From Chloroflexota bacterium (GTDB lineage Bacteria > Chloroflexota > Limnocylindria > Limnocylindrales > CSP1-4): a DNA stretch of 59,193 nucleotides. Below, in pieces: positions 7,415 to 29,632 of the stretch. The stretch lies in contig JBDTUR010000002.1 in the NCBI GenBank assembly GCA_040007635.1, forward strand, positions 1 through 59,193, read 5' to 3'. Positions within the stretch are counted from its first letter, which is position 1, and every line of letters begins with the position of its first letter. A program made the position numbers and the translations under genes. The notes under the pieces were generated by a model. That model was not told where the DNA came from and made no database searches. It saw nothing but the letters and a program-made list of their open reading frames with translations.

Positions 7415-7441
7415 TCCGCCGAGCGTACAGCCTCGCTATTG

Positions 7442-7523
7442 GCTGCTGGACTCCGTCGCCCACTCGCCCGCCCAGTTGCGCATGGTCAGCGCTCTGTGCG
7501 CGTTCGAAGAGACTGCCCACTGA
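7442..7523 (+). pseudogene. About 80-nt fossil of the 3' end of a paralogue of the helicase gene that ends at 2261
   Basis: The translation ...LLDSVAHSPAQLRMVSALCAFEETAH* parallels ...LLEALAHSPDQLRMVNGLCAFVEEAG* at 2180-2261. The 44-nt core 7461-7504 matches 2199-2242 at 38 of 44 positions by hand alignment. No upstream helicase sequence remains. Confidence 0.7.
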
Positions 7524-7832
7524 TTGGCATGAGCGTCGACTGCGAACGGCGCGCCAGCCCCCCGCCGTTACTGGAGCTTACCGTTGGCTCCGGATGCGCA
7601 GGCTAGCAGCCGCGTCGAGAGCCAACGCGGTTGCCGCTTTGTTGTTCTTGCGACCGCAGCGCGTGAGCCAGATACGAAGTGCCGGCGAGTCGCATTCCGC
7701 AAGACCTGCCGATAGCCTCGGCTCGCCCGTTGGCGAGACGGGTATCCGCCGTAATAGGGCTTCGCCCACTAGGGTGGCATCTTGAACAGTTCAGGCGGCG
7801 TTAACGCGATAGGCTCATCGACGAGGAGGGCG

Positions 7833-9752
7833 ATGAGCGAACAGGTAGGACGCTACGGCTGGGCTTCAGATTTCTCCAAGTTCCAGCAAACGCCGTCGGT
7901 CGTCGTTCGTGGGTCGCTGAGCGAGTTCGTTCGCGATGCATCTGTGGAGCAAGTGCGGGCTTGGGACGAGTCAATTCCACCGCTCCAGCGCGAAGTGCGC
8001 GAGGTCATCGCACACTACGCAGCAGCATCGGACTATTACGCCCTACTTGAGTACGAGCTACCGCTCGAGTCCCGGCGACCCGACGTGGTGTTCCTCTCAT
8101 CCGGGTCGGTTTTCGTCCTCGAGCTGAAAGGCACCTCGAAGCCGACGCTCGCGGCGCTGGACCAGGCGTCGGCCTACGCGCGCGACCTGCGCGCCTACCA
8201 CGCCGTGTGCCAGGACCGGCCCGTGCATCCAATCCTCGTGCTAACCCATGCGGCAGGCCGTCTCGGAAAGGACGCCGAGGTTGAAGTCACTGGCATCGAC
8301 GCGGTCGACGAGGTAGTAGAGGCCCTGGACACGCCGGACCCTGAACACCCCATCGACTTACAGGACTTCCTCGCGCCAGAGGCATACGCTCCCCTACCAA
8401 CGATCGTTGAAGCGGCCCGCGAGCTCTTCCAAAGCCGTCAATTGCGCCGGATCTGGCGGGCAGCGGTCGCGACCGAGCCCGCACTAGATGCGATTACGGC
8501 AATCACGCACGAGGCTGCCCAGACCAATTCGCGTCGGCTGGTGATCCTCACCGGGGTTCCCGGCGCAGGCAAGACACTCGTCGGCCTGCAGGTCGCGCAT
8601 GCCCGGTTTCTTGACGACCTGGCCGTTGACCGCGGTGACGGCCGACTTCATCCGCCGGCGGTCTACCTATCCGGAAACGGTCCGCTCGTGGAGGTCCTTC
8701 AGTACGAGTTCCGCGGATCGGGCGGCGGGGGCAAAGCGTTCGTCCGCGACGTGAAGGCCTATGTCGAGCGCTACACCCAGAACCCGCGTCTAGTCCCAGA
8801 TGAACACGTGCTTATCTACGACGAGGCGCAACGCGCCTGGGATGCCGAACGGGTTGCCGACAAGCACGGCAGCCGCGGCGACGGCCGGTCGGAGCCCGAG
8901 CACTTCATTGAGTTTGCCGAGCGAATCCCGGGCTGGTGCGTGGTGCTCGCCCTGGTCGGCCAGGGCCAGGAGATCCACATCGGCGAGGAAGCAGGTCTCG
9001 GCCAATGGCGATTGGCGATAGAACGTGCCAGGGGCGACTGGTCGGTCCACGCTCCGTCTCGTGTAGCGGACGCCTTCAGCGGTCTGTCGTCCGTCGCGAT
9101 TTCGGACGATCTCCACCTCCACACGGAGATCCGGTTCCACCTAGCACACCAAGTCGACGCCTTTGTCGAGGCTCTACTCAGAGACAAAGAGGATCCTCAG
9201 ATCGCTGAGCTGGCTCAGATGCTGGAGCGGAATGGCTACCACCTGCGCATCACCCGCGATCTCGAAGTGGCCAAGGCACACATGCGGGAGCGGTATAGCG
9301 GCGACCCGGAGGCGCGGTTCGGCATCCTCGTCTCAGCTCGCGACAAGGAGCTTGCACCGTTTGGGGTCATCGCATCCTCTGGTCGATTTTCACGGTTCGC
9401 CTACGGCCCCTGGTATGTCGAGGGTGACGACGACCCGCTCGGGCGGTCTTGTCGAGCCCTTCGTGAACCGGTAACCGAGTTCGGAGCTCAAGGTCTCGAG
9501 CTCGACAGTGCCCTTCTCGCATGGGGAACAGACTTCATCCGCGACGGCGGCCGATGGTCCAACCAGCTCGCCAAGCGATACCAGAATCCCAAGCGGATCC
9601 GCGATGCCTTCCAGCTGCGCAGGAACGCCTATCGCGTGCTCCTAACCCGCGGCCGTGACGGAACGGTCGTATTCATGCCTCCTTTGCCAGTCCTGGACGA
9701 GACGTACGCATACCTACTAAATGCCGGATTCCGAGCGATCGACCGCGAATGA
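7833..9752 (+). CDS. DUF2075-type protein: an N-terminal PD-(D/E)XK-like nuclease motif plus a P-loop (Schlafen-helicase-like) ATPase
   Basis: The ATG at 7833 is preceded by GAGGAGGG. RRPDVVFLSSGSVFVLELKG gives a D...ELK nuclease motif. VILTGVPGAGKTLVG is Walker A and VLIYDEAQRAWD is Walker B. The DUF2075-like C-terminus reads NAYRVLLTRGRDGTVVF. Confidence 0.8.
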   Translation: MSEQVGRYGWASDFSKFQQTPSVVVRGSLSEFVRDASVEQVRAWDESIPPLQREVREVIAHYAAASDYYALLEYELPLESRRPDVVFLSSGSVFVLELKGTSKPTLAALDQASAYARDLRAYHAVCQDRPVHPILVLTHAAGRLGKDAEVEVTGIDAVDEVVEALDTPDPEHPIDLQDFLAPEAYAPLPTIVEAARELFQSRQLRRIWRAAVATEPALDAITAITHEAAQTNSRRLVILTGVPGAGKTLVGLQVAHARFLDDLAVDRGDGRLHPPAVYLSGNGPLVEVLQYEFRGSGGGGKAFVRDVKAYVERYTQNPRLVPDEHVLIYDEAQRAWDAERVADKHGSRGDGRSEPEHFIEFAERIPGWCVVLALVGQGQEIHIGEEAGLGQWRLAIERARGDWSVHAPSRVADAFSGLSSVAISDDLHLHTEIRFHLAHQVDAFVEALLRDKEDPQIAELAQMLERNGYHLRITRDLEVAKAHMRERYSGDPEARFGILVSARDKELAPFGVIASSGRFSRFAYGPWYVEGDDDPLGRSCRALREPVTEFGAQGLELDSALLAWGTDFIRDGGRWSNQLAKRYQNPKRIRDAFQLRRNAYRVLLTRGRDGTVVFMPPLPVLDETYAYLLNAGFRAIDRE

Positions 9753-10993
9753 CCACCTCTGCGTTCGCCTGGCTTGACTACTCGGACGCCGAGCGGCGGC
9801 GCATGTTCGAGGTTATCGACCTCTTCCGCGAGAAGGGCACCGTCGACGACCTGGGCATCGGCTCCATACGAGACACGTTCGCCGATCGCTTCTTCCCGGC
9901 GATCAGCACGATCCAATCGCGGGGCCGCTACTTCCTCTTCATTCCGTGGCTCTACCAAATGCTGGAACGTGACCGCATTCCGAGCGCACGCGCCAACCAC
10001 CACGCTCGGTGGCTTCAGGCCGGGCTCGTGGAGAGCCTCAAGGCTGGCGGAGAAGCGGAGGCCGCGGGCGTAATCGGAATCTCGTCAGGCGCCAACCTTC
10101 AGAGGCCCCCGAGCATCGCCTACTGGGCCGGTCTGCGTCGCCTCGGCATCCTCGCCTACCCAGGATCGGCTGATCGTTATCACTCGTCGCTCGACGCCCA
10201 CTATCGAGAGAGCCGGCCAGTCCGCTCTGATGGAGAGGAGCTCGTCGAGAGAGCCAAGCACAACTGGAACCCGAGTCTCCCCCCGCCCCCAGACGATCTG
10301 CTGACTTCAGCGACCATGCGCCTGCGACTCGAGGACGCCGAGTTCCTGGCTGAACAGATCCGGCTCAATGCCGGTGACTCCATGCTCGCCGCATGCCTGT
10401 CGCCCAGTGTCCGTCGGGTGAAGACTGCGCCAATGATCTGGGACCTGGGTGGACTTGACACGCTTGACCCCGAGCTCCAGCTGGACATCGAGAACGCGAG
10501 ATGCTTTGCCCTCGTTATGGAGGGGGCCGCCCTCACGTACAACCTGATGCTCGCCGATGCTGTCGAGGCATCTGGCGTCCGAGTCGACGACGCACTCAGT
10601 TCCAGGTACCGCGCCATGCTCGCTCCCTGGTCCGACGAGATGACGGCCAACCATGCCCAACTGAAGGCGTGGGACCGACCTGAAATGTGGGGACGCCTTC
10701 TCACAAGGAATCGTCGGCTCCCATCAGGCGCGCAGGCTTTCTCGGAGCATTGGATCACCGCGGCGATCTCCGGACCGCACAAGGTCATCGACAACCCGAC
10801 GATGCGTCAGGTCATCACCAACCGGGAGCGTCGGATGAAAGGCGGACTTGCCAGGCTGAGCAACCCCCGCGCTCTGGAGCGCTGGGGCGGCGACTCCGGC
10901 CTCGGCCGGCTCAGCTACCGATGGCAGCCCGTTGGACGACAGACGGTCATGGACATCCTCGCCGGCCTCGCTCGGCCACCTGCGGACGACTGA
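9749..10993 (+). CDS. Uncharacterised 414-aa protein, second gene of the four-gene operon (possibly the ZacA-like/DUF6361-like component; unverified)
   Basis: ATGA overlap with the DUF2075 gene stop. The N-terminus reads WLDYSDAERRRMFEVIDLFREKGTVDDLGIGSIRDTFADRFFPAISTIQSRGRYFLFIPW. I recognise no catalytic motif. Confidence 0.7.
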   Translation: MTTSAFAWLDYSDAERRRMFEVIDLFREKGTVDDLGIGSIRDTFADRFFPAISTIQSRGRYFLFIPWLYQMLERDRIPSARANHHARWLQAGLVESLKAGGEAEAAGVIGISSGANLQRPPSIAYWAGLRRLGILAYPGSADRYHSSLDAHYRESRPVRSDGEELVERAKHNWNPSLPPPPDDLLTSATMRLRLEDAEFLAEQIRLNAGDSMLAACLSPSVRRVKTAPMIWDLGGLDTLDPELQLDIENARCFALVMEGAALTYNLMLADAVEASGVRVDDALSSRYRAMLAPWSDEMTANHAQLKAWDRPEMWGRLLTRNRRLPSGAQAFSEHWITAAISGPHKVIDNPTMRQVITNRERRMKGGLARLSNPRALERWGGDSGLGRLSYRWQPVGRQTVMDILAGLARPPADD

Positions 10994-10995
10994 CC

Positions 10996-12888
10996 ATGCT
11001 GGATCCGGATGGCCGCCACCTCCTACTCGACGCCCTTCGGCCACCGCCGGGCTACGAGCTGGACGTGGCTGTCGGCACGACTTACACCCTCGACCTCTAC
11101 TCGCTGCTGACCGCGCCTGTCGCGTTCGCGATGTTCGACCGAGAGGCCGAGGATGGGTCGTCGCGGGTTGATCCGATCGCAGCACTCCAGGCACTCCGCC
11201 GCTACGCGGGCCGCATCACTTTGTTCTGCGATACAGCGGGCGTTTCAGTTCCGCGCGACTACCGAGCTCTCCTTGTCTATCTCGAGCAGAGCGTCGTGCC
11301 GGTCAGACCGCCAAACCCGCAAGCGATCTTCCATCCCAAGGTCTGGTTCATTCGATACCGACAGCCAAACGCCGAAACGACCACGTATCGGCTCCTCTGC
11401 ATGAGCCGCAACCTCACCTTCGATCGCTCGTGGGACACCATCCTGCGACTCGAAGGCACGATTTCGGACACCGCTCACCATCCGGAGCTGCGCGAGTTCG
11501 CGGCGGCACTCCCCGGGCTAGCCGACCCTGTCAAGCCCATCTCCGCCGAGCGCCGAGCCGCAATCCTGGAGCTGGCTGCGGAACTGGAGCGCGTCGCATG
11601 GCAGGCCCCAGATGGGATGGCGATCGAGAGGTTCTGGCCAATCGGCCACGACGGTCGCGCCGCGTGGCCTTTCCAGGGGCGATCGGATCGCTACTTCGTG
11701 GCATCTCCGTTCGTGACGCAGGGTGCTCTGACCCGGCTGGCCGGCAAAGTACGGGGATCCGTCCTGTTGTCCCGGCCCGAGACCTTCGACCAGCTTGGCG
11801 GCAAAGCCACTAACTTTCTACGTGAGCGGTTGGTGCTCAGCGCGGATGTGCGCGAGACAACGCTTGACCAGGAGGTGGCTTCCGATGCCGACGCCGGCCA
11901 CCCTACCTCCGACTCGGAGGCGCCAGGACTGGTCCTTGAGGGTCTGCACGCCAAGCTCGTCGTTGCGGATGTTCCATACGGCGGCCGGGTCTGGACTGGA
12001 TCGGCCAATCTGACCGATGCCGCCTTTGGCGGAAACGTCGAATTCGTGACGGAGCTGCGCGGACCGAAGAAGGTGTGCGGCGTCGACGCCGTGATTGGCG
12101 ACCAGAAGCAGCGTATGGGCCTGCGGAAACTGGTTGAGCCGTACACACCGGCGAGCGACGAAGGGCGCGATCTGACGGACGTTGAGCAGGCGGAGCGACG
12201 GCTTGACGCAGCGCGCCGGATGCTGGGTCGCCTGCGATACACGGCCACCTGCCACAAGGACGAGGCGGGCAGATTTGAGCTCGAGCTGACGGGAGTTCCA
12301 CCAGAGAACGGTCCGTTCCAACCAGCTGGCTTGGACGGGCTGGTGTCCACGATTCGCCCAGTGACGCTTGGCGACGCTGTGGCGACCGTGATCGATGTCC
12401 AGCCCACAGGTCTCACGGTTCGCTTTGGCGTTTCATACGAGGCAATCACGCCGTTCTTTGCCGTCCGCATACGACCTGTTGAGGCGGTAATCCCACTGGA
12501 CACGAGCTTCCTCATCAACGCGGAGCTTGTTGGCGCACCGGAGGATCGTGCCGAGAACGTGATGGTCGGGCTGCTCAGAAACCGGGCCGACCTGATCAGG
12601 TTCCTGCTCCTGCTGCTCGGCAACGTCGACGATGCAATGGCGGCGATCGCCAGCGACGAGCCGTCCACTTGGGACGGCGGCGGATCCTGGGGTTCAGGCG
12701 CTGCATCGGAGGCTCTGCTCGAGCCACTCGTGCGTGCGTATTCGCGCGACCGCACACGGCTTCACGAGATCCGTAGCGTCATGGAGGAGCTGGCCAAGAC
12801 GGAGACGGGCCGCGAGATCCTCCCGGACGGCTGGGACGCGGTCTGGTTACCGATCCAGGCAGCCCTCGAGTCGGAGCCTCGCCCGTGA
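10996..12888 (+). CDS. Phospholipase D (HKD) superfamily protein, putative nuclease
   Basis: The ATG at 10996 lies 2 nt after the previous stop (MLDPDGRHLLLDALRPPPGYELDVAVGTTYTLDL). It has two HKD-type motifs: IFHPKVWFIRY and GLHAKLVVAD...GSANLTDAAF. The track ORF start at 10687 overlaps the previous gene and was rejected. Confidence 0.82.
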   Translation: MLDPDGRHLLLDALRPPPGYELDVAVGTTYTLDLYSLLTAPVAFAMFDREAEDGSSRVDPIAALQALRRYAGRITLFCDTAGVSVPRDYRALLVYLEQSVVPVRPPNPQAIFHPKVWFIRYRQPNAETTTYRLLCMSRNLTFDRSWDTILRLEGTISDTAHHPELREFAAALPGLADPVKPISAERRAAILELAAELERVAWQAPDGMAIERFWPIGHDGRAAWPFQGRSDRYFVASPFVTQGALTRLAGKVRGSVLLSRPETFDQLGGKATNFLRERLVLSADVRETTLDQEVASDADAGHPTSDSEAPGLVLEGLHAKLVVADVPYGGRVWTGSANLTDAAFGGNVEFVTELRGPKKVCGVDAVIGDQKQRMGLRKLVEPYTPASDEGRDLTDVEQAERRLDAARRMLGRLRYTATCHKDEAGRFELELTGVPPENGPFQPAGLDGLVSTIRPVTLGDAVATVIDVQPTGLTVRFGVSYEAITPFFAVRIRPVEAVIPLDTSFLINAELVGAPEDRAENVMVGLLRNRADLIRFLLLLLGNVDDAMAAIASDEPSTWDGGGSWGSGAASEALLEPLVRAYSRDRTRLHEIRSVMEELAKTETGREILPDGWDAVWLPIQAALESEPRP

Positions 12889-15800
12889 CAGCAGTTGAGA
12901 TCGACGGCACGGAGATCGTCGCCGATGTGATGGCGGGCCTCAAGGGCTTCCAGCGCAAGACCGTCGATCACGTGTTCCGCCGGATGTTCGAGAGCCATGA
13001 GCCGTCGACGCGCTTCCTAGTCGCCGACGAAGTGGGCCTGGGCAAGACCCTTGTGGCCAGAGGCCTTATCGCCAAGACCATTGAATGGCACCAGAAGCGC
13101 AAGACGAAGCGCATTGACGTTATCTACATCTGCTCCAACGCGGACATTGCGCGCCAGAACATCCGGCGCCTCAACGTCACGGACCAGTCGGACTTCTCCC
13201 TGGCTACGCGGATCACGCTGCTTCCTCTGCAGCTCCAGCAACTGAACGACAACGGCCTGAACTTCATCTCGTTCACCCCGGGGACCAGCTTCAACATGGC
13301 CTCCCGAGGCGGTATTGCTCAAGAGCGGGCCGTCATCTTCCACCTTCTGAAAAAGGCGCTCGGGCCCGATGCCGTCGACCACGACGGCACCTACCGACTG
13401 CTGAAGGGCGGCAAGGGTGAGCAGGGCTTCCGCAATCAAGTCGCCTGGGTCGGTACTCAGCCGCTGGACAAGGGACTGACCAAGGCATTCGTCACGGAGT
13501 TCCGCGCCCGCCCGGAGCTGCGAAAGCGGGTTCGTCAAACGATACGGAAGCTTCGCGAGTCCGAAGCGGCCGTCGACTGGAACACGAAATGGAACGTCAT
13601 CAGCGAACTGCGCCAGACGCTGGCGAAGAGCTGCGTGGAGGCCCTCGAGCCTGATCTTGTGATCCTCGACGAGTTCCAGCGCTTCAAGGATCTGCTCGAC
13701 GAGCCAAACCCGGACGATTCGGACGATATCCGCGCTCTGGCCCATCACCTGTTCGCCCAGAAGGACGTGCGCATTCTTCTGCTTTCGGCGACGCCGTACA
13801 AGATGTACACGTTGTCGGACGAGCCGGGCGACGACCACTACGCCGACTTCCTCCAGACGTGCCGTTTCCTGATGTCGAAGGAGGACGCCACCGAGTTCAC
13901 CGGCGAGCTGCGCGACTTTCGACGAGCGCTGTTCAACTTCGAGACGGTCGGCGAAGAAGGCCTTCTGCGCCGTAAGCGCTCCGTGGAACGACGACTGCGC
14001 CACGTCATGGTCCGCACGGAGCGGCTCGCTGTGACCGAGGACCGCAGCGGCATGCTGGCAGACCGCAAGCTCACTGCCCGACTCGAGCCGAATGACGTCC
14101 GCAACTTCGCGATGGTGGACCGACTCAGCCGGGCGCTCTCCGCTGGCGATCCGACCGACTACTGGAAGTCTGCGCCGTACCTGCTCAACTTCATGGAGGG
14201 CTACCAGCTCAAGCGCAACCTGAAAGCAGCCCTCGCGACGGGGGACGGAGTTGATTTGGCCGCCGCCATCGACCCCGATCTGCTCATCCCTGCCGGTCGG
14301 CTGGGGCGATACGGAGCGTTGGACCCGGGAAACGCACGGCTTAGGGGGGTCGCCGACGATCTGCTCGACTCGGAGTCATGGCGACTGCTCTGGATGCCGC
14401 CGTCTCTGCCGTACTACGAGCCTGGCGGTCCGTTCGCACACCCACAGGCAGCATCTCTGACCAAGCGACTGATTTTCTCGAGCTGGGCGATGGTTCCTCC
14501 CGCCATATCTGCGGTGCTGAGTTACGACGCAGAACGGCAGATGATGCGCAGTCGCGACCGCCAGGCAAGAAACAATGCAGCGGCGCGGCGCCGGATCCGT
14601 GGTCTGCTGGCGCTCAACCGCGCGGAAGGCGAGCCCGCAGGAATGTCGACGTTCGCGTTGCTGTACCCGAGCCCTTCCCTCGCCGAGCTCGGCGACCCAC
14701 TGGCTATCGCTCGCGACCTCGGCGCCGCGGACGGGCCGGTTTCACGTGATGCGCTTTCAGCAGAAGTAAAGCGGCGGATCGAAAAGGCACTCTCTCCTCT
14801 CGTCAAGCGGGCTCCGCAGGAAGGCCCGGAGGACGAACGCTGGTACTGGGCGGCCGCGCTCCTGCTGGATCGGAAACGCGACAGCGACTCAACCGAGAGG
14901 TGGCTGACGCAATCCACCGCCTTCAGGGGTCTTTCTCATGGCGCGTCGACCGAAGAAGGCGAAGATAGTTCGGGTTGGCTGACTCACGTCGACCGGGCTA
15001 TCAGCGCCGTACGGGAGGAACTCGACCTCAGTCGCGTGCCCGCCGACCTTGCCAGCGCGCTGACAGCGCTTGCGATCGCCGGGCCAGGAGTGTGCGGCCT
15101 GCGAACGACCGCTCGAGTGCTCGCGCGCGTCCGAGCACAACGCATTGACTATCGAGCGGCCGAGTCACGCGACGCCGGCGCGCGGATCGCGTGGGGGCTG
15201 CGCTCGCTGTTCAACGTGCCTGAAGTGATGTCCCTCGTCCGCGGGCCGGTCGGAGATGAGTCTGTGTACTGGCGGGCAGTGCTCGACTACTCGATCGATG
15301 GAAATATCCAGGCGATGCTGGACGAATACGGCCACGTTCTGCCGGAGTGGCTGGGCCTCTTGGACCGCGACTCGCACGCGATTGCCCAGGCAATGAGCGA
15401 GGCCATTACAGAGACGGCATCTGTCCGGGCGGTCAACTACGGTGCAGACGACGTCCGGATCAACGACGGCAAGATCTCGCTGTCGCCAATGCGCTTGCGA
15501 GTCCGATTCGCGATGCGCTTCGGTGCCGACCAGAGCGATGAGGAGAAGGTCCTCCAACGTTCGGGCGCCGTGCGAGCCGCCTTCAACTCTCCCTTCTGGC
15601 CGTTTGTGCTGACGTCGACTTCAGTTGGACAGGAAGGTCTCGACTTTCACCAGTACTGCCACGCCGTCGTCCACTGGAACCTGCCCTCCAATCCGGTCGA
15701 CCTGGAGCAGCGCGAGGGCCGCGTCCACCGCTACAAGGGCCACGCCATCCGCAAGAACGTGGCGACTCGTCACCGGTCAATGGCGTTCGGCCGCCGCGTG

Positions 15801-16100
15801 ACTGATCCGTGGACAGCGATGTTCACCGAGGCGAGCCGCGGCGTCGCCCGACGCGACCACAAGGACATTGAGCCCTTCTGGGTCTACGACGGACCCGCGC
15901 AAATCGAGCGTCTCGTACCGCTCATCCCGCTCAGCCGCGAGGTCGAGCGATTGGAACGCCTCAAGCGATCATTGGCCGTCTACCGGATGGTTTTCGGGCA
16001 ACCCCGGCAGGAGGACCTGATCGCCTTCCTCGGAAACAAGCTCACCCCAGCGGAGTTGACGGAGCTGAGCCAGGTGTTGCGAATCAATCTGGCGCCGTAG
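12885..16100 (+). CDS. SF2 (SNF2/DEAD-like) helicase, 1071 aa
   Basis: GTGA overlap with the PLD gene. Motifs: VADEVGLGKTLVA (I), LVILDEFQRF (II), LLLSATPYK (III), STSVGQEGLDFH (V), LEQREGRVHRYKGH (VI). Confidence 0.85.
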   Translation: MTAVEIDGTEIVADVMAGLKGFQRKTVDHVFRRMFESHEPSTRFLVADEVGLGKTLVARGLIAKTIEWHQKRKTKRIDVIYICSNADIARQNIRRLNVTDQSDFSLATRITLLPLQLQQLNDNGLNFISFTPGTSFNMASRGGIAQERAVIFHLLKKALGPDAVDHDGTYRLLKGGKGEQGFRNQVAWVGTQPLDKGLTKAFVTEFRARPELRKRVRQTIRKLRESEAAVDWNTKWNVISELRQTLAKSCVEALEPDLVILDEFQRFKDLLDEPNPDDSDDIRALAHHLFAQKDVRILLLSATPYKMYTLSDEPGDDHYADFLQTCRFLMSKEDATEFTGELRDFRRALFNFETVGEEGLLRRKRSVERRLRHVMVRTERLAVTEDRSGMLADRKLTARLEPNDVRNFAMVDRLSRALSAGDPTDYWKSAPYLLNFMEGYQLKRNLKAALATGDGVDLAAAIDPDLLIPAGRLGRYGALDPGNARLRGVADDLLDSESWRLLWMPPSLPYYEPGGPFAHPQAASLTKRLIFSSWAMVPPAISAVLSYDAERQMMRSRDRQARNNAAARRRIRGLLALNRAEGEPAGMSTFALLYPSPSLAELGDPLAIARDLGAADGPVSRDALSAEVKRRIEKALSPLVKRAPQEGPEDERWYWAAALLLDRKRDSDSTERWLTQSTAFRGLSHGASTEEGEDSSGWLTHVDRAISAVREELDLSRVPADLASALTALAIAGPGVCGLRTTARVLARVRAQRIDYRAAESRDAGARIAWGLRSLFNVPEVMSLVRGPVGDESVYWRAVLDYSIDGNIQAMLDEYGHVLPEWLGLLDRDSHAIAQAMSEAITETASVRAVNYGADDVRINDGKISLSPMRLRVRFAMRFGADQSDEEKVLQRSGAVRAAFNSPFWPFVLTSTSVGQEGLDFHQYCHAVVHWNLPSNPVDLEQREGRVHRYKGHAIRKNVATRHRSMAFGRRVTDPWTAMFTEASRGVARRDHKDIEPFWVYDGPAQIERLVPLIPLSREVERLERLKRSLAVYRMVFGQPRQEDLIAFLGNKLTPAELTELSQVLRINLAP

Positions 16101-16161: not shown

Positions 16162-16944
16162 CTACGAGGCCGGGAGGGGCTTGAGCAACTCGCGATCGAT
16201 CAAGGCACGGAAATGACCGGACACACTCAACGCTAGGGCACGGTCACGCACGACCAGGCCCAGCTCGATGTTGCGGTCCAGGGCGGCCGCAGTCAGGTTG
16301 GCAGACGTGATGTACACGGACTCATCGTCGGTCACGACCGCCTTCGCATGTAGCACCCCTGCTGGACCGTCCAGCTCGATCGATCGCGGGTCGTAGTAGA
16401 CCAACGGCCGGGATGTTCCGGGCCAGTCGCTGCCCCAGAAGCGGTCGGCGAAGCGGCGCACCAAATCATGGGCTGCTGTGGTGTCTCCCCACCGCCGCTG
16501 GATGTTCAGGAAGAGTGTCGCCTGGAGCTTGGGCACCGCATCCATGCGCCGCGACAGAACCTCAAAGGCTTTCGGGCCATCGAAGTAGGCAAAGCTCGAG
16601 ACCCATACCGAGCGCTCGGCCGAGCTGAGGAGTTCCTCGTACACCTGACGCGTATCCCTTGCCTGGACGCCTGGGACGTCGGGACCGGACCACACGAGGT
16701 CGGGCCGTGGGGTCCGAGAGGCGACTTGGTCGACGCTGTGTATCCAGGCCGCAATTGCCCGGTCGGTGAGCTCGAGTCGTCGCAGATCCAAAAGCGCAGA
16801 CGCCAGCTCATCGCCTCCCTCATCGATTCCGATTGCCGAGCGCAAGGAGGCGAGCGAAGCAGGGACGGTCAACTGGCCGGCCGACAGAGCATCCACAAGC
16901 CTGCGACGCAAGTGCGCCGGCATTGCGAAAAGCGCGTCGGTCAC
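16162..16944 (-). CDS. drmC: DISARM DrmC, PLD-family nuclease
   Basis: HKD motif VLHAKAVVTDDESVYITSANLTAAAL. It has a 4-nt overlap with drmB and is the last gene of the drm operon. Confidence 0.85.
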   Translation of the reverse strand: MTDALFAMPAHLRRRLVDALSAGQLTVPASLASLRSAIGIDEGGDELASALLDLRRLELTDRAIAAWIHSVDQVASRTPRPDLVWSGPDVPGVQARDTRQVYEELLSSAERSVWVSSFAYFDGPKAFEVLSRRMDAVPKLQATLFLNIQRRWGDTTAAHDLVRRFADRFWGSDWPGTSRPLVYYDPRSIELDGPAGVLHAKAVVTDDESVYITSANLTAAALDRNIELGLVVRDRALALSVSGHFRALIDRELLKPLPAS

Positions 16945-18740
16945 AATGCGGTCCCAAAGAACGAAGCCCCAGGCACGCCTATCACTGGCACAACCTGCGC
17001 GCGATCCAGGTAGTCGTTGTGCGTTTCACACGATGTCTCGGCGATCAGCGTGCAGCCGTGGCACGCCGCGCCATGGAGCCAGCGCCGCTCGATGCTTTCG
17101 CCCGGTTCGTGCTGAGCGCAGATTGGGTCGTTGGAACAGAGCGCTGCCATCTGCATCGCGAAGGTGACGTGCGCATCGATGTGCCGAGCCTGCTGGACGA
17201 GGCCCCCAAGCGTTCCGTCGGCGTCCGGGCTGCCGGTGTACAACAGGATTCCGTATCGCCCGGCCTGGCTATCCACGTAGATTCGTTCCCGGAGTGAGCT
17301 CGCAGGGTAGCCGCAACGCATCGACAGTGACTCGATGAGCAAATGGGAAAGCGTATGCAGGAGGACGTACGGTCCGCCCGGGAATGGCCGATCGGACTTC
17401 CCGTTCATCTGCGTGAGCCAGGCCTCATGACCGCGCATGAGCCGGTCGACACGATCAATGACTCCGGGGCGCGTGAGCCAGTCCGCAACATACCCTGCGT
17501 TTAACTGGATGAAGACTCCCTCGCCACGATTCTCAACCGCGGGGAACCAACTCGGGTCGAGGGCCAGCACTGCCCGTTCTACGTCCGATTCATACTCGCC
17601 ATCAATGTCCGGCGAGACGGCTTCGAATCGCGTGAACCCGACCAGCGCGAGCACCTCGCGTAGGCGATGCAGTTGGATCACAGCCTCGATGCCAGGCAGG
17701 CGACCCAGTCGCCGCCACGCCCGGTCGGGCAGGCGTCGCGCATGGAAGTCGCGATCAATGGGGACGTCGTCTCCGTAGCCTTCTGGCGCCGCCAGCAAGG
17801 CGTCCAACTCAACCTGCTTGACCGGTCGCTCGCTGCCGGGGCCAGCCTTGTGCTCTTGAATGGCAGTAAGGATCTCGTCGCTCCCATATGGGGCGAGCTC
17901 TTCTGCGATCCGCGGCTTCCTTTTGATGAGCGCGAGGTCGTCTGCGTCACCGACGATCTGCAAGTCGTCCCACAGCTTCGTGACTGTCTGTTGAATGGCG
18001 CTCCCGCGATCAGGCAGCGACAAGACGCTCATCACCTGTGGGAAATACGCGTTCGAAGCCGTGCGGATAAGCAACCGGCTCGGCAGGTCGCAGTCTTCTG
18101 CAGCCTTGGGACCCAACCATGGACGTTTGCCTCGACACGACCCGAGAGGGTTGTCTTCGAGCACAGTCGTCTCATACATACTGCGTCGCTTGCCACACTC
18201 GCAACGGACTGCGAGATCACCAAGGTCGCCACCACTTCCTTGCTCATCGAGCCAGAGCGGACGGCGGCAGGGATCTTCGAGACCATGGACAAACCGGTAC
18301 CAGTCGAGATCGTCCACATGTCCCTTCGGGCAGGCACGAACGAATCGGATCGGCACGACTGGATGGCCATCCATCCTGCTCCGGCCGTCTAGGGCCGTGC
18401 GATGCACGAGGCGTCGTGAGCGCTCACGGTCCTCGCTGCCCCTGTCCTCCTGGACGAGGAACCATTCCGGGAAGCGGTACGCCCCGATCCCCTTTTGGCG
18501 AGCCCCAGGACTGTCCGACTCGACGGGCGGCGCGAAGAGCCTTGGGACCGGGATCCCGGTAATCGTCTGCAGCTTGCCCGACAGACGCTGCTCGATAATC
18601 TCCTCGAGATCGCTCGTCCTCGGCCAGGTCTCCAGGCCGCCGACGATCGCCGCGTACTTAGGGAGGTCCAGGAGCGCACCCGGACCCCAGGTCGTGATGA
18701 TCTGTCCACGGCGAACCTGGCCATGCGCCTTGTGGCTCAT
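16941..18740 (-). CDS. drmB: DISARM DrmB (DUF1998 protein)
   Basis: The N-terminus is RRGQIITTWGPGALLDLP. Internal Cys/His clusters include CPKGHVDDLDW and CECGKRRS. The C-terminal DUF1998 signature is LHGAACHGCTLIAETSCETHNDYLDR. It is coupled to drmA and drmC. Confidence 0.85.
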   Translation of the reverse strand: MSHKAHGQVRRGQIITTWGPGALLDLPKYAAIVGGLETWPRTSDLEEIIEQRLSGKLQTITGIPVPRLFAPPVESDSPGARQKGIGAYRFPEWFLVQEDRGSEDRERSRRLVHRTALDGRSRMDGHPVVPIRFVRACPKGHVDDLDWYRFVHGLEDPCRRPLWLDEQGSGGDLGDLAVRCECGKRRSMYETTVLEDNPLGSCRGKRPWLGPKAAEDCDLPSRLLIRTASNAYFPQVMSVLSLPDRGSAIQQTVTKLWDDLQIVGDADDLALIKRKPRIAEELAPYGSDEILTAIQEHKAGPGSERPVKQVELDALLAAPEGYGDDVPIDRDFHARRLPDRAWRRLGRLPGIEAVIQLHRLREVLALVGFTRFEAVSPDIDGEYESDVERAVLALDPSWFPAVENRGEGVFIQLNAGYVADWLTRPGVIDRVDRLMRGHEAWLTQMNGKSDRPFPGGPYVLLHTLSHLLIESLSMRCGYPASSLRERIYVDSQAGRYGILLYTGSPDADGTLGGLVQQARHIDAHVTFAMQMAALCSNDPICAQHEPGESIERRWLHGAACHGCTLIAETSCETHNDYLDRAQVVPVIGVPGASFFGTAL

Positions 18741-21700
18741 GAAGGTTCGTCCACATCTCGGCCGTTGAGCTCCTTGAGGAAGATGTCGACCTGCGGCTCC
18801 ACATCGCGAAGTGACCGATTCACCCGGAACTTCTGCTGGTCCGGAGATTCAATCGACGTGTCGAGCATCTCGTGCAGCAATGGTTTCGGTCCATCCGACT
18901 CATATCGCTGGAATTGCACCTGCACCCCTGCAGCCGCGTAGTCCTCGACCACCGCGCGCCAAGAGTCGAGCAGATCCCCTACGCGATTCTGGACGCTACG
19001 CAGGCGCTCGTTGCGTTCGTCCTCGTCGTCTATGGGCTGCCGCCGCACGCGGTCAAGAAACGCGTCCTGAAGTGCGCGTTCCAGCGAGGCCCGCACCGCC
19101 GCGATCTCCGCGGCACCCCGCGCTGGCGTGAGCCTAGGCTCACCGTGGCGCGCGAGGCTGACCAGCGCGCCTGCGAAGCCACGGTCAAGCGCACCTGCGG
19201 AGAATGGCGTGACGCTCGTGACCTCGACCGAGCGGTAGAAGGTCTCGTGATAGTGTCGGAACCGTTCGTAGTGGGACCGGTCGCGCGGTTTGTGCATGTT
19301 GAGCAGCGTGACGACGAGGCCTGGTCGCTGGTCGTCACGGCCGACGCGGCTCGTGGCCTGGATGTACTCGGCATGCGTCTTCGGCTGGCCGAGTACGACC
19401 ATCAGGCCGAGCCGCTGGATGTCCAGACCGACTGAGATCATGTTTGTGGCGATCGCACAGTCCACCCGATCGCGCTCGAAGAACCGAGCCTCGAGCCGGC
19501 GTCGCGCTTCTGCCACCTTGTCGGTCGTCACGCGCGACGTGAGCTCCAGGACCTCCGAAAACGTTCGGCGATCACGGAAAAGCCCGCGATCCTCGCCTAC
19601 CCGCTTGCGGATCCCATAACTCTTGATGGTGTTCTGAACCTGTTCCTCAAGGATGCGACGTGCCCCACCGAGCTCCCGCAGGCTATTGAAGTAACCGATC
19701 GTGGTCATGTAAGGATCCGAGGGGTTGTCCTTGTTCTCGTGGCCACCTGCGTCGCGATAGGCTTGTTCAGCTGCCCCCATGAGCGCCAGCCAGGCCCTCC
19801 GCATGAACTCCTTGGGGTTGCGGCCCTGGGAGGCGATTCCCATGTATAGACGCGCCGGCGTCTCACTCGCGGGTACGGTCCGAGCGAAGAAGGAGTCCCG
19901 CCGGTCGGTGCCGGGTGGCGGGAACACTTGCGTCAACGACCGCCCGAAGAGTGCCTGGATCTGGTCCCGAGCCCTCCGCACCGTTGCGGTCGATGCGACG
20001 ATCTTGGGCCGCACGATCCGGCCGTTGATCTCCCTGACACACAGCGCCTCGATGGCCGTCTCATATAGGCCGACCATCGTGCCCAGCGGCCCGGCGATGA
20101 GATGCAGCTCGTCCTGGATCACCATGTCAGGCGGTGGCAGCGGCACTACAAGGCGTGCGCCCCTGCCTGGCTCCGAGGCCCCGTAAAAGCCGGCGCCGTC
20201 ATGCCGCTCGGCTCCGCCGAGCAATGCACCTGACGGACCGACCCACGGCAGCGAAGCGAACTTGTCGACTGTGGCGATGAGGAAGGCCGGCAGCCGCCGA
20301 TAGATGGGCTCATCCACGGCTACGATCGGGAGGGCACGGTCGCGCGTGAAGTCGCACACCGGGTTGATGCAAACGATTCGCAGTTCTCGCGGCGCATCGT
20401 CGTTAGGCTGCAGCGCAAAGGAGTCCGGCCCGAACGACGTGCCGCACCACGGACACTCCTCCAGCGGGATGGGCGACGGTTTTCCCTTAGGGTCGTTCTT
20501 GTACTGGCGGACCTTCGTGCGCGCCGTGTCCTGCCGGTTATCGCCCTTCCGGCCGAGCACGTTAGGGGTGGCGGTTTTGCCAACCCACAGTCCAATCTCG
20601 AATGGCCATGTGCCGTATCGGGCAGGTGCCTGTCCACGTTCGAGCTCCAGCGCGCAGACGAGGCCCGCGGCGCGGCTCAGCTGGTCCAGGGTAAGGAGCC
20701 GCAGGGTGTAGCGCATGACGACGCATACCCCGGCACCTTCGAGCCCGCTCTCGCCAGGATGACGCAGTCGGCGCAGCACCATCGTGAAAGCCGCGAGCCC
20801 GAGGTATGCCTCTGTCTTGCCGCCACCGGTCGGGAAGAAGAGAAGGTCCACAATCTCGCGCTCGCCATCGGTCGGGTCTGCGAGCCCAGGCAGGTTCAGA
20901 AGGATGAACGCGAGCTGGAACGCTCGCCATCGCGGCGTCTCGATGTCGAGCCTCTTCCGGAGCGCCCGAGCCATCGCGCGGTTGGCAACGCGAAACGCAT
21001 CTAGGGCATCTTTATCATGCGTCAGGACCGTGATGCCGTGGTCGATCCGCGAGGCTGCTAGGTCGGCCAGGCGCAGCAGCTCCGTTGCTGTCTCCGCGCG
21101 AGTCCCACTGAGAGCCGCGACATCCGCTGCGGACGCGACGATCCAGTCCCTGTAGTGAGCCGCGAGCGGTCGCAGCGCAGCCTCGACGGCGGTGCCATCG
21201 CTTAGCGCCCCGAGGGTCTCCATCGTGAGCTCGACATCCGGGACGTCCACGGTGATCGTCTTCTCCACCTCAGCCGTGGGTATCCAGGCGGTGCGCAGGA
21301 CCCGACACACTCCGTCGAGGACGTCCCATTCGGCAGAGACGCCGTGCCCGGTCGCGTACTCGGGGGAGTCCGCATAGTGCAGGTCGGCGACCTGCTCGTC
21401 CCAGCCCATGGCGTGGGTGCCACGGAGATCCGGCCGTGCCACAAAGGGCTCATCGCCGCGCACCTCGATCTGCGGCTGGAATGCGTGGCCGAGATCAGAC
21501 GCTCCTGAGTCGACCGGTGGCGGTGGCCGGTGGTTGACGAGGAACACCGAGACGGAGCGCGTGCCCGCTGGCAGGTAACCATCCAGATCGTGTTCTGGAA
21601 CCAGCCGGTCCAGGACCTGCAGCTGCAGTCCACCCGACGCAGGGACCTCGTGGACGGCCGCGGCGCCGTCCGAGGTGCCGAGTGGGACGTCGACGACCTC

Positions 21701-22147
21701 GGTGCGCGGCGTGCGGCGCCACACCTTGAGCGGTTCGCCATCAGCAACCGGCATCACATCAGGTGTGTATTCACCCCAATCCACCGTGACTGCCAGTAAA
21801 CGCGTGTCGTTCGCGACCAGGAAGCTGAGGCCCATCGAGGAGGAGAAGAAGCCCTTCCTGGCCGCTCGACGCTCCTCGCTCGACTCCTCGGCCAGACCCG
21901 CAGTGACCGGAACCTCACCGATGTCGTCGTCCTCGTCAGCGTCAGCGCGGTGTTCCGGTGGCGTGGCCGAGGGGATCAAGAAACCGGTCAGGTACCAGTT
22001 CGATGGGCGCACCCAGCCCGGCAATCGTTCCTCGGCGAGTTCATGGCCTGGCCACGGTCCCACGAGGTCCAGCCGCAGGGCGTCGACCAGCCGTCGTCGG
22101 ACGTCCAGGGAGTTTTCGGGTGCGGGAGGCGTGACAGGCATCTTCAT
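18737..22147 (-). CDS. drmA: DISARM DrmA, DExH-type helicase (1136 aa)
   Basis: Motifs: LLFFPTGGGKTEAYLGLA (I), MVIQDELHLIAGPLG (II), IVASTATVRRA (III), ATNMISVGLDIQRLG...QPKTHAEYIQATSRVGR (V-VI). It has an ATGA overlap with the upstream methylase fragment. Confidence 0.88.
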   Translation of the reverse strand: MKMPVTPPAPENSLDVRRRLVDALRLDLVGPWPGHELAEERLPGWVRPSNWYLTGFLIPSATPPEHRADADEDDDIGEVPVTAGLAEESSEERRAARKGFFSSSMGLSFLVANDTRLLAVTVDWGEYTPDVMPVADGEPLKVWRRTPRTEVVDVPLGTSDGAAAVHEVPASGGLQLQVLDRLVPEHDLDGYLPAGTRSVSVFLVNHRPPPPVDSGASDLGHAFQPQIEVRGDEPFVARPDLRGTHAMGWDEQVADLHYADSPEYATGHGVSAEWDVLDGVCRVLRTAWIPTAEVEKTITVDVPDVELTMETLGALSDGTAVEAALRPLAAHYRDWIVASAADVAALSGTRAETATELLRLADLAASRIDHGITVLTHDKDALDAFRVANRAMARALRKRLDIETPRWRAFQLAFILLNLPGLADPTDGEREIVDLLFFPTGGGKTEAYLGLAAFTMVLRRLRHPGESGLEGAGVCVVMRYTLRLLTLDQLSRAAGLVCALELERGQAPARYGTWPFEIGLWVGKTATPNVLGRKGDNRQDTARTKVRQYKNDPKGKPSPIPLEECPWCGTSFGPDSFALQPNDDAPRELRIVCINPVCDFTRDRALPIVAVDEPIYRRLPAFLIATVDKFASLPWVGPSGALLGGAERHDGAGFYGASEPGRGARLVVPLPPPDMVIQDELHLIAGPLGTMVGLYETAIEALCVREINGRIVRPKIVASTATVRRARDQIQALFGRSLTQVFPPPGTDRRDSFFARTVPASETPARLYMGIASQGRNPKEFMRRAWLALMGAAEQAYRDAGGHENKDNPSDPYMTTIGYFNSLRELGGARRILEEQVQNTIKSYGIRKRVGEDRGLFRDRRTFSEVLELTSRVTTDKVAEARRRLEARFFERDRVDCAIATNMISVGLDIQRLGLMVVLGQPKTHAEYIQATSRVGRDDQRPGLVVTLLNMHKPRDRSHYERFRHYHETFYRSVEVTSVTPFSAGALDRGFAGALVSLARHGEPRLTPARGAAEIAAVRASLERALQDAFLDRVRRQPIDDEDERNERLRSVQNRVGDLLDSWRAVVEDYAAAGVQVQFQRYESDGPKPLLHEMLDTSIESPDQQKFRVNRSLRDVEPQVDIFLKELNGRDVDEPS

Positions 22148-23139: not shown

Positions 23140-23144
23140 CTCGG

Positions 23145-29437: not shown

Positions 29438-29632
29438 CTCGCCCGTCAACGCGGAACGACCTGCACGTCGTCGCATCCGATGGTGTCGAAGCGCAGCGTC
29501 GCCTCGGGTTGCCAGGGTTTCGCCACGCACACAACGCTATCGGTAGGGCAGTTCGTCCCCATCACTTGCCCAAAACCACCCTCGCTATTTTGGATTCCTT
29601 GACGTGGGCCTCGAAGCGCAGCGAAAGCTGAA

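What the first reader, a model, noticed from the sequence alone, without database searches (positions are those of the whole stretch)
7833..16100. Four-gene translationally coupled operon: DUF2075 nuclease/ATPase, 414-aa unknown, PLD-family protein, SF2 helicase
Seen in the sequence: four plus-strand genes are joined by an ATGA overlap (9749-9752), a 2-nt gap (10993 to 10996) and a GTGA overlap (12885-12888). Gene 1 has a D...ELK PD-(D/E)XK motif plus Walker A and B motifs. Gene 3 has two HKD motifs. Gene 4 has the full set of SF2 helicase motifs. Gene 2 has no motif I recognise.

Knowledge and memory: a three-gene unknown + PLD + helicase architecture resembles what I recall of the Azaca (ZacABC) system. 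I cannot verify that from here. I do not recall a DUF2075-type protein as part of it.

Inference: this is either a known three-gene system that has recruited a fourth nuclease/ATPase gene, or an undescribed four-component helicase/nuclease system.
Basis: partly seen in the sequence, partly recalled or inferred. Interest (0 to 1): 0.72.

Follow-up and report, generated by a model that had tools for sequence, protein, structure and literature searches.

The report
Azaca defence operon plus Nhi-like neighbour
Three of the four genes are a standard copy of the known anti-phage system Azaca (ZacA, ZacB, ZacC), and the first gene is a separate, widespread nuclease-helicase gene that sits directly upstream of it only in a few close relatives, so this is an ordinary defence-island arrangement and not a new four-part system.

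Summary
Four plus-strand genes lie at 7833-16100, joined by an ATGA overlap, a 2-nt gap and a GTGA overlap, and all the catalytic motifs named are present.

Genes 2-4 match the PADLOC ZacA, ZacB and ZacC models over nearly their full length (E = 2e-115, 5e-160, 0). They form an intact Azaca system, a known defence whose ZacABC complex cleaves phage T4 DNA.

Gene 1 matches PADLOC's single-gene candidate PDC-S41. It combines a PD-(D/E)XK nuclease with a DUF2075, Schlafen-type SF1B ATPase. This is the domain organisation of the validated single-gene defences Nhi and Nhi-like, but no Nhi model matched its sequence.

Comparative genomics separates gene 1 from Azaca in both directions:
- 0 of 80 Azaca loci in other genomes carry a gene 1 homologue.
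- 0 of 80 gene 1 family loci carry Azaca.
- Among 13 close lineages (ZacA at least 66% identical), 3 have gene 1 co-directional, 1 has a gene 1 family member on the opposite strand, and 9 show none.
- An 86%-identical gene 1 orthologue sits beside Druantia-type genes with no Azaca.

The locus lies in a probable Chloroflexota defence island next to a complete class 1 DISARM system. Verdict: a new member of a known kind, with a lineage-specific operon fusion. Interest is low.

The parts
7833..9752 (+). Gene 1: a 639-aa PDC-S41 family protein. It has an N-terminal PD-(D/E)XK nuclease domain (about aa 60-140; E73, D84, E97, K99) and a DUF2075 / Schlafen-group-3-type SF1B ATPase domain (aa 235-616; Walker A 241-248, Walker B 330-333). 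It is probably an autonomous single-gene defence that has become fused into the Azaca operon.
   Evidence: - PADLOC PDC-S41: E = 7e-127, profile positions 3-632 of 657.
- Pfam PF09848: E = 5e-60.
- The N-terminus gives only weak matches to NERD (E = 0.019) and Cas4 (E = 0.015).
- The catalytic motifs are invariant.
- The AlphaFold2 model (mean pLDDT 79.7) is closest to SLFN11, SLFN14, RecD, nsp13, RecD2, Upf1 and Dda.
- A GAGGAGG Shine-Dalgarno precedes ATG 7833.
9749..10993 (+). zacA: a 414-aa DUF6361 protein, the first gene of the Azaca core. Its start overlaps the gene 1 stop codon (ATGA), and it has no Shine-Dalgarno sequence of its own.
   Evidence: - PADLOC ZacA: E = 2.4e-115, profile positions 2-395 of 396.
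- Pfam DUF6361: E = 5e-59.
- The AlphaFold2 model (mean pLDDT 85.6) is all-helical and has no PDB fold match.
10996..12888 (+). zacB: a 630-aa PLD-family nuclease with two HKD motifs (H113/K115 and H318/K320). It is the predicted DNA-cleaving effector.
   Evidence: - PADLOC ZacB: E = 5e-160, profile positions 1-584 of 586.
- Both HKD motifs are invariant in 71 sequences.
12885..16100 (+). zacC: a 1071-aa SF2 helicase/ATPase. Motif I is DEVGLGKT (48-55), motif II DEFQ (262-265), motif III SAT (301-303) and motif VI QREGRVHR (942-949). Its GTG start overlaps the zacB stop codon.
   Evidence: - PADLOC ZacC: E = 0, 1156 bits, profile positions 6-1016 of 1019.
- The helicase motifs are invariant in 60 sequences.
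7415..7832 (.). A 418-nt intergenic region upstream of gene 1, and the presumed promoter region of the four-gene transcript. DNA homology with other gene 1 loci begins only at about 7806, which covers the ribosome binding site.
   Evidence: - Coordinates and homology limits.
- The consensus promoter scan found nothing above chance.
16162..29530 (-). Context only, not part of the operon: a complete class 1 DISARM system that converges on zacC.
- DrmC 16162-16944
- DrmB 16941-18740
- DrmA 18737-22147
- DrmMI, split into 22144-23139 and 23145-26159
- DrmD 26141-29530
   Evidence: - NCBIfam scores for DrmA, DrmB and DrmC are above their curated cut-offs.
- PADLOC matches DrmD and DrmMI.

Best explanation
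The locus holds two defence modules in one operon.

**Genes 2-4 are a canonical Azaca system.** By homology with the characterised Bacillus system, ZacA, ZacB and ZacC assemble into a complex. In that complex the ATPase of the SF2 helicase ZacC is needed for the PLD nuclease ZacB to cut invading phage DNA. BmAzaca prefers the glucosyl-hydroxymethylcytosine DNA of phage T4. Whether this copy has the same specificity is unknown.

**Gene 1 is a separate module.** It belongs to the large PDC-S41 family and has the Nhi-like domain organisation of a PD-(D/E)XK nuclease plus a DUF2075 SF1B helicase. It most likely acts on its own as a nuclease-helicase against phage nucleic acid.

**The link between them is expression, not function.** In this Chloroflexota sub-lineage gene 1 lies directly upstream of zacA. 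Its stop codon has come to overlap the zacA start, and zacA has no ribosome binding site of its own. The two modules are therefore co-expressed, and zacA translation probably depends on gene 1 translation. They are not obligate partners.

**Shown here:** the family assignments, the intact motifs, the gene order and the pattern of co-occurrence.
**Inferred:** the biochemical activities (by homology and architecture), the functional independence of gene 1 (from its dissociation from Azaca in both directions) and the translational coupling (from the sequence).
For: **Family assignment**
- Genes 2-4 match ZacA, ZacB and ZacC over nearly their full length, with DUF6361 for gene 2.
- The zacA-zacB-zacC order holds in every one of 80 loci from many phyla that has enough DNA. 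Junctions are tight in 78 of 79 and 65 of 66.
- The catalytic motifs are invariant and present in the window.

**Published biochemistry** (bioRxiv 10.1101/2025.07.10.664194)
- All three proteins are needed to cleave T4 DNA.
- The nuclease active site and the ZacC Walker A motif are both required.
- Protection against T4 exceeds 1,000,000-fold.

**Gene 1**
- It matches PDC-S41 at E = 7e-127, and its motifs are intact.
- Its model has a Schlafen/SF1B fold.
- Nhi and Nhi-like, both single-gene defences, have the same domain organisation.

**Independence of the two modules**
- 0 of 80 Azaca loci have gene 1, and 0 of 80 gene 1 loci have Azaca.
- Gene 1 family members have no recurrent neighbour. 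The commonest family appears in 5 of 104 flanking ORFs.
- In 9 of 13 close lineages no gene 1 is seen.
- The 86% gene 1 orthologue in L169 lies beside DruA and a DruE-like gene.
- In the ZacA tree, each locus with gene 1 is sister to one without it.
- DNA homology shared with L169 and L170 is confined to gene 1 plus its ribosome binding site, 7806-9743.
- The gene 1-zacA junction varies: a 4-nt overlap, a 29-nt gap, or divergent orientation.
Against: - The ATGA overlap, and the missing Shine-Dalgarno before zacA in the window (L173 and L172 have GGAGG there), make zacA expression depend on gene 1. That is what a genuine subunit relationship would also look like.
- A gene 1 family member lies next to this Azaca clade in 4 of 13 lineages against 0 of 80 elsewhere. 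One case is a different, 59%-identical copy on the opposite strand, which suggests a second, independent association. This could reflect functional affinity and not only shared defence-island residence.
- Nothing has been tested experimentally for this locus, for PDC-S41, or for any Chloroflexota Azaca.
- L173 and L088 show only 269 and 555 nt upstream of zacA, so a more distant or divergent gene 1 cannot be excluded in those two.
Confidence: 0.78

Rival explanations
1. This is a lineage-specific four-component Azaca variant. The PDC-S41 nuclease-helicase has been recruited as a working partner of ZacABC, for example as a sensor or loader that licenses the complex, or as a second effector. The four genes would then act as one system in this sub-clade.
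For: - Gene 1 and zacA overlap by ATGA in the window and by 4 nt in L081.
- zacA has no Shine-Dalgarno of its own in the window.
- The co-directional arrangement is kept in three lineages whose ZacA proteins have diverged to 80-83% identity from the window's.
- A second, divergent association occurs in L084/L085.
- The function of ZacA is unknown, and mutating its conserved residues did not affect in-vitro cleavage. This leaves room for additional inputs.
Against: - The two modules dissociate in both directions. The sister loci L173, L172 and L082 keep an intact zacABC without gene 1, within the sequence available for L173. L169 keeps gene 1 (86%) without Azaca.
- 0 of 80 Azaca loci have gene 1, and 0 of 80 gene 1 loci have Azaca.
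- The junction is not conserved: overlap, 29-nt gap, or opposite strand.
- The position upstream of zacA holds unrelated genes in other close relatives.
- BmAzaca works as a three-protein complex.
Confidence: 0.14
2. Gene 1 is not a defence gene at all. It would be a housekeeping or mobile-element DNA repair/recombination helicase-nuclease that happens to lie upstream of Azaca, and the operon fusion would have no immune significance.
For: - PDC-S41 is only a computational candidate, and no paper in the library mentions it.
- The family is very large: at least 7962 clusters.
- Most of its flanking ORFs (104 sampled) did not match any one defence family. The commonest family was seen in only 5.
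Against: - Its domain organisation is that of two experimentally validated single-gene defences, Nhi and Nhi-like.
- Here it lies inside a dense defence island with Azaca and DISARM.
- Its closest orthologue lies beside Druantia-type genes.
- Other family members have Mokosh-, Dpd-, BrxH- and type I RM-like neighbours.
- PADLOC built the model as a defence-island-associated candidate (my own knowledge of how PDC models were defined; not checked here).
Confidence: 0.06

Closest known systems
Azaca (ZacABC), first described by Millman et al. 2022 and characterised biochemically for Bacillus BmAzaca in bioRxiv 10.1101/2025.07.10.664194
   Same: - The three proteins match: DUF6361 ZacA, a double-HKD PLD nuclease ZacB, and an SF2 helicase ZacC.
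- The gene order is the same, with tightly packed junctions.
- All three give near-full-length PADLOC matches.
- The catalytic residues shown to be essential in BmAzaca (the PLD site and the ZacC Walker A motif) are present.
   Different: - The host is probably Chloroflexota, not Bacillus.
- An extra gene is translationally coupled upstream, and zacA has no ribosome binding site of its own.
- Phage specificity is untested. Whether it targets glucosyl-hmC DNA is unknown.
PDC-S41 (PADLOC-DB v2 single-gene 'phage defence candidate')
   Same: - Gene 1 matches the model at E = 7e-127 over profile positions 3-632 of 657.
- Family members elsewhere occur without any fixed partner, as expected of a single-gene module.
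   Different: - Here, and in two close relatives, the gene is joined to the Azaca operon and is not free-standing.
- The candidate itself has no experimental support that I could find.
Nhi (Staphylococcus epidermidis SERP2475; Bari et al.) and Nhi-like (Millman et al. 2022)
   Same: - The domain organisation is the same: an N-terminal PD-(D/E)XK nuclease followed by a DUF2075-overlapping SF1B helicase.
- Both are single-protein anti-phage nuclease-helicases.
   Different: - No Nhi model was returned for gene 1, even at E up to 10.
- A PDB sequence search found no relative.
- Nhi and Nhi-like themselves share no sequence identity, so this is a resemblance of architecture and not membership of the family.
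Schlafen group 3 proteins (SLFN11, SLFN14)
   Same: - The Pfam PF09848 helicase domain is shared.
- They are the best structural matches to the gene 1 model (7zel at E = 1e-7, and 9nyy).
- They too are antiviral nuclease-plus-helicase proteins.
   Different: - Schlafens are eukaryotic, and the N-terminal domain of SLFN11 and SLFN14 is described as a tRNA/rRNA-targeting RNase, not a PD-(D/E)XK nuclease (from my own knowledge; not checked here).
- Global TM-scores are low (about 0.3).
Class 1 DISARM (DrmD, DrmMI, DrmA, DrmB, DrmC), the adjacent system
   Same: It also pairs a PLD protein with SF2/SNF2 helicases. ZacB and ZacC give short local matches to DrmC and DrmD at the HKD motif and the helicase C-terminal motif.
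   Different: - Those matches cover only 40-60 residues.
- DISARM is complete on its own, on the opposite strand.
- Azaca relatives occur without DISARM.

Membership tests
Azaca (ZacABC) | A ZacA protein of the DUF6361 family | tested here: met
   PADLOC ZacA: E = 2.4e-115, profile positions 2-395 of 396. Pfam PF19888: 200.6 bits against a cut-off of 25.
Azaca (ZacABC) | A ZacB PLD-family nuclease with intact HKD active-site motifs | tested here: met
   PADLOC ZacB: E = 5e-160, full length. H113/K115 and H318/K320 are present and invariant in 71 homologues.
Azaca (ZacABC) | [quoted passage not shown] | tested here: met
   PADLOC ZacC: 1156 bits, profile positions 6-1016 of 1019. GLGKT 51-55 and DEFQ 262-265 are invariant in 60 homologues.
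Azaca (ZacABC) | The three genes are adjacent, on one strand, in the order zacA-zacB-zacC | tested here: met
   The window junctions are a 2-nt gap and a 4-nt overlap. The same order is found in all related loci with enough DNA, and the junctions are tight.
Azaca (ZacABC) | Anti-phage activity, and DNA cleavage that depends on all three proteins | not testable with these tools
   Shown only for BmAzaca (paper 10.1101/2025.07.10.664194). It would need cloning and phage assays.
PDC-S41 (PADLOC candidate) | A full-length match to the family model | tested here: met
   E = 7.2e-127, protein residues 7-624, profile positions 3-632 of 657.
PDC-S41 (PADLOC candidate) | A single-gene module with no obligate partner gene | tested here: met
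   No recurrent neighbour was found among 104 flanking ORFs of family members; the commonest family appears in 5. 0 of 80 family loci carry Azaca. L169 has the 86% orthologue in a different context. In the window itself the gene is fused into the Azaca operon.
PDC-S41 (PADLOC candidate) | Demonstrated anti-phage function | not testable with these tools
   No paper in the searched library mentions PDC-S41.
Nhi / Nhi-like | An N-terminal PD-(D/E)XK nuclease plus a DUF2075-overlapping SF1 helicase in one polypeptide | tested here: met
   E73, D84, E97 and K99 are invariant, with Walker A and B inside the PF09848 domain. The model has an SF1B fold. The architecture of Nhi and Nhi-like is described.
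Nhi / Nhi-like | Sequence-level similarity to Nhi family models | tested here: not met
   A PADLOC scan at E up to 10 returned only PDC-S41 and a marginal Cas4 hit. Caveat: I did not verify which Nhi models the library holds.
Class 1 DISARM (considered as the owner of genes 3 and 4) | Full-length DrmC and DrmD matches for genes 3 and 4 | tested here: not met
   There are only local hits of 40-60 residues, far below the NCBIfam cut-offs: 27 bits against 133, and 65 bits against 610. True DrmA, DrmB, DrmC, DrmD and DrmMI are encoded separately at 16162-29530.

The most novel reading that the evidence does not exclude
In this Chloroflexota sub-clade the Nhi-like PDC-S41 nuclease-helicase has been recruited as a functional fourth component of Azaca, for example as a sensor or DNA-end processor that feeds or licenses the ZacABC nuclease complex. 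zacA translation would then be mechanically tied to it through the ATGA overlap. That would be an example of two defence modules in the act of merging into one system.
Probability: 0.12. Interest if true: 0.55.

Novelty: new member of a known kind. Interest (0 to 1): 0.24.

Why it matters
The practical value is correct filing. Annotation pipelines should call 9749-16100 as Azaca and 7833-9752 as a separate PDC-S41 (Nhi-like architecture) candidate. No new four-gene system should be named.

Two modest points of interest remain:
- **Operon fusion between independent defence modules.** The downstream system has lost its own ribosome binding site, so this locus is a clean natural example. It could be used to study how composite defence systems arise, and whether co-expression gives synergy.
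- **A construct for testing PDC-S41.** The locus, or the Azaca-free orthologue in L169, offers a ready-made construct for testing PDC-S41, which has no experimental support that I could find.

Azaca has been studied in Bacillus systems expressed in E. coli. A Chloroflexota copy next to DISARM adds taxonomic breadth but no new principle.

Tried and rejected
- **Promoter and terminator scans of 7300-16300.** They found 0 promoter-like and 4 terminator-like sites, no more than in shuffled sequence. This says nothing about transcription units in a probable Chloroflexota genome.
- **Sequence search of gene 1 against the PDB.** No hits.
- **Fold search of the ZacA model against the PDB.** Nothing better than E = 1, so it gave no functional clue for ZacA.
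- **Metagenome-contig scan for close ZacA relatives.** Only one locus came back, L088. The close clade had to be assembled from 12 single-protein context look-ups instead.
- **tRNA scan of the window.** None found, so no integration-site evidence for a mobile island.
- **First neighbour scan.** It exceeded the residue limit and was repeated on 104 ORFs. Those ORFs came from a crude longest-ORF caller on GC-rich DNA, so some may be spurious. The result supports only 'no recurrent partner', not a measured defence enrichment.
- **Genes 3 and 4 as DISARM, Dpd or BREX components.** Considered and rejected, because the hits are only short and local at the HKD and helicase-C motifs.
- **The four genes as part of the adjacent DISARM system.** Considered and rejected. 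DISARM is complete on the other strand, and Azaca relatives occur without it.
- **A Dnd/Pbe-type association** (recalled from memory). Considered and not pursued, because no such model matched genes 1-4.
- **L081 zacC.** It is split over three frames. I could not tell pseudogenisation from long-read assembly error and drew no conclusion from it.

Full report
**1. The observation**

The four plus-strand ORFs exist as described.
- Gene 1's ORF opens at TTG 7782. The ATG at 7833 is preceded by GAGGAGG, and homologues align from its first residues.
- Gene 2 is 9749-10993.
- Gene 3's ORF opens at 10687. All relatives align from the Met at 10996.
- Gene 4 is 12885-16100, with a GTG start.
- The junctions read ATGA (9749-9752), TGA-CC-ATG (10991-10998) and GTGA (12885-12888).

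- Gene 1: E73, D84, E97, K99, Walker A 241-248 and Walker B 330-331.
- Gene 3: two HKD motifs.
- Gene 4: helicase motifs I, II, III and VI.

**2. What the genes are**

PADLOC models give near-full-length matches:
- Gene 2 is ZacA (E = 2.4e-115).
- Gene 3 is ZacB (E = 5e-160).
- Gene 4 is ZacC (1156 bits).
- Gene 1 is PDC-S41 (E = 7e-127), a single-gene 'phage defence candidate'.

Pfam agrees: DUF6361 for gene 2, weak PLDc_2 for gene 3, DEAD and Helicase_C for gene 4, and PF09848 (DUF2075 / Schlafen group 3 helicase) for residues 235-616 of gene 1. NCBIfam has no model for genes 1 and 2. For genes 3 and 4 it gives only short local hits to DrmC, DrmD and DpdE.

The N-terminal third of gene 1 has only marginal matches to NERD and Cas4, both in the PD-(D/E)XK superfamily. 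An AlphaFold2 model of gene 1 (mean pLDDT 79.7) is closest to SLFN11, SLFN14, RecD, nsp13, RecD2, Upf1 and Dda, which is an SF1B fold.

ZacA gives a confident all-helical model (mean pLDDT 85.6) with no PDB fold match.

**3. What is known**

Azaca is an established three-gene defence system. A 2025 preprint (10.1101/2025.07.10.664194) reports the following for the Bacillus system:
- It gives more than 1,000,000-fold protection against T4.
- The purified complex preferentially degrades T4 DNA, which carries glucosyl-hmC.
- All three proteins are needed.
- The nuclease active site and the ZacC Walker A motif are essential.
- Mutating conserved ZacA residues had no effect in vitro.

No paper in the library mentions PDC-S41. 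The domain organisation of gene 1 is that of Nhi (10.1101/776245) and Nhi-like (10.1101/2022.05.11.491447), both single-gene defences. No Nhi model was returned for gene 1.

**4. Is gene 1 a partner of Azaca?**

*Distant relatives.* A ZacA alignment found 353 loci in GTDB representative genomes. The best 80 (36-54% identity, many phyla, two archaeal lineages) were examined.
- All with enough DNA have zacA-zacB-zacC in order.
- None has a gene 1 homologue within 10 kb (tblastn E up to 1e-5).
- In the reverse direction, 80 loci of gene 1 relatives (44-68% identity) have no zacA, zacB or zacC within 8 kb.
- The nearest flanking ORFs of those loci show no recurrent partner. The commonest family, MkoA-like, appears in 5 of 104, with scattered Dpd, BrxH and type I RM genes.
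- Gene 1's family is far larger than ZacA's: at least 7962 clusters against 249.

*Close relatives.* Thirteen lineages have ZacA at least 66% identical to the window's.

| Arrangement | Lineages (ZacA identity to the window) |
|---|---|
| Gene 1 co-directional | window (4-nt overlap); L081, 80% (4-nt overlap); L170/L171, 83% (29-nt gap) |
| Gene 1 family member on the opposite strand, 273 nt away, only 59% identical to window gene 1 | L084/L085, 72% |
| No gene 1 seen | L173, 87% (269 nt upstream seen); L172, 83%; L088, 81% (555 nt seen); L082/L083, 77%; L086/L087, 72%; L254, 73%; L255, 72%; L256, 70%; the P0025 contig, 66% |

- In a ZacA neighbour-joining tree, each locus with gene 1 is sister to one without it: window with L173, L170 with L172, and L081 with L082.
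- An 86%-identical gene 1 orthologue (L169) is followed by a DruA gene, and on the other strand by a PDDEXK_1 gene and a DruE-like helicase. There is no Azaca.
- DNA similarity between the window and L169, L170 and L171 runs only from about 7806 to 9743, which is gene 1 with its ribosome binding site.
- Similarity among the loci upstream of zacA stops at the zacA ATG.
- The position upstream of zacA holds unrelated genes in other relatives: HD_4/DUF8328/DUF8255 genes, three unknown genes, NERD genes, or divergent helicases.

*Conclusion.* Azaca persists without gene 1, and gene 1 persists without Azaca, so the two are separable modules.

The junctions inside the Azaca core are nearly always 20 nt or less, or overlapping (78 of 79 and 65 of 66). 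The gene 1-zacA junction is not conserved.

The window shows one real sign of integration at the level of expression. L173 and L172 have GGAGG just before zacA, but the window has none and instead has the ATGA overlap. In this lineage zacA translation probably relies on ribosomes finishing gene 1. This is an inference from sequence only.

**5. Context**

The locus lies in a defence island.
- A complete class 1 DISARM system (DrmD, DrmMI, DrmA, DrmB, DrmC) lies on the minus strand at 16162-29530 and converges on zacC.
- Beyond it are a UvrD/PD-(D/E)XK gene and an HD_4-DUF429 fusion gene.
- Upstream are split transketolase genes and a small toxin-antitoxin-like gene pair.
- The transketolase subunit is most similar to Chloroflexota MAGs (77% and 72%). 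ZacA's nearest named relatives are from Dehalococcoidia, Chloroflexota and Thermomicrobiales. The window is therefore probably from an uncultured Chloroflexota bacterium.
- No tRNA gene was found.

**6. Mechanism, novelty and scores**

The most likely reading (about 0.78) is Azaca plus an independent PDC-S41 nuclease-helicase of Nhi-like architecture, co-expressed from one operon.
- Azaca: an ATP-dependent ZacC licenses the ZacB PLD nuclease, within a ZacABC complex, to cut phage DNA.
- Gene 1: it acts separately on phage nucleic acid.

The main rival, that gene 1 is a working fourth component in this sub-clade, keeps about 0.14. This is because of the coupling and the repeated adjacency within the clade.

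The Azaca part is a new member of a known kind. The fusion is a local variation in operon structure. Interest is low (0.24). If the fourth gene were shown to be functionally integrated, the interest would be moderate (about 0.55).

Noticed in passing
window 22144-26159 (minus strand): The DISARM methyltransferase DrmMI is split into two ORFs, 23145-26159 (1004 aa) and 22144-23139 (331 aa). A TAG stop is followed 5 nt later by an ATG in a different frame. The two parts match consecutive positions (9-1039 and 1041-1333) of one PADLOC DrmMI model. This could be a frameshift (a pseudogene or a sequencing error) or a natural split. If the methyltransferase is dead, the DISARM system may be inactive or toxic.
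   Followed up: partly
window 29633-34578 (minus strand): A 1210-aa UvrD-helicase/PD-(D/E)XK protein with strong GajB-like PADLOC hits overlaps by 4 nt with a 438-aa HD_4-DUF429 fusion protein. This may be another defence pair. In L086, an Azaca relative, a 1214-aa UvrD/PDDEXK_1 gene and a separate HD_4 gene lie just upstream of zacA, so these genes may travel with this Azaca clade.
   Followed up: partly
L086 8427-9943; L172 408-2837; L255 3739-5924; L082 3350-9664; L254 2641-4734: The position immediately upstream of zacA varies among close relatives. It holds HD_4+DUF8328+DUF8255 genes, three unknown genes (186, 254 and 367 aa), NERD plus small genes, or divergent DUF4011 or DEAD helicases. 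Homology between the loci ends exactly at the zacA ATG.
   Followed up: partly
L169 398-10326: The 86%-identical orthologue of gene 1 is followed, after 123 nt, by a DruA-family gene. On the other strand it faces a PDDEXK_1 gene and an 1833-aa DEAD/YjiV_N/MZB (DruE-like) helicase. This is a Druantia-type neighbourhood in place of Azaca.
   Followed up: no
L081 8012-11235: In the relative with the same gene 1-zacA overlap, zacC is spread over three reading frames, and the gene caller fuses zacB with the zacC N-terminus (968 aa). This is either decay of the system or indel errors in a long-read assembly.
   Followed up: no
window 9749-10993: ZacA (DUF6361) gives a confident, almost entirely helical AlphaFold2 model (mean pLDDT 85.6, pTM 0.84). 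It has no significant structural match in the PDB (best E = 1.0), so its fold and role remain uncharacterised.
   Followed up: yes
window 4942-5753 (minus strand): Two small genes overlap by 4 nt. One is a 108-aa UPF0175 / Phd-YefM-like protein. The other is a 162-aa protein with DUF3368 and a weak PIN-domain match. Together they look like a type II toxin-antitoxin pair at the edge of the island.
   Followed up: partly
window 24-2261 and 2999-4945: The left end of the window holds two more helicase genes. One is a 745-aa protein with an RNase_H_2-superfamily domain plus an AAA_11/AAA_12 SF1 helicase. The other is a 648-aa UvrD-type helicase with an HRDC domain, on the minus strand. Whether either is related to defence was not examined.
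   Followed up: no
L011, L019, L030, L048, L052: Complete zacA-zacB-zacC operons occur in Methanothrix/Methanotrichaceae and Methanocrinis archaeal genomes (ZacA 37-40% identical to the window's), so Azaca is not confined to bacteria.
   Followed up: no
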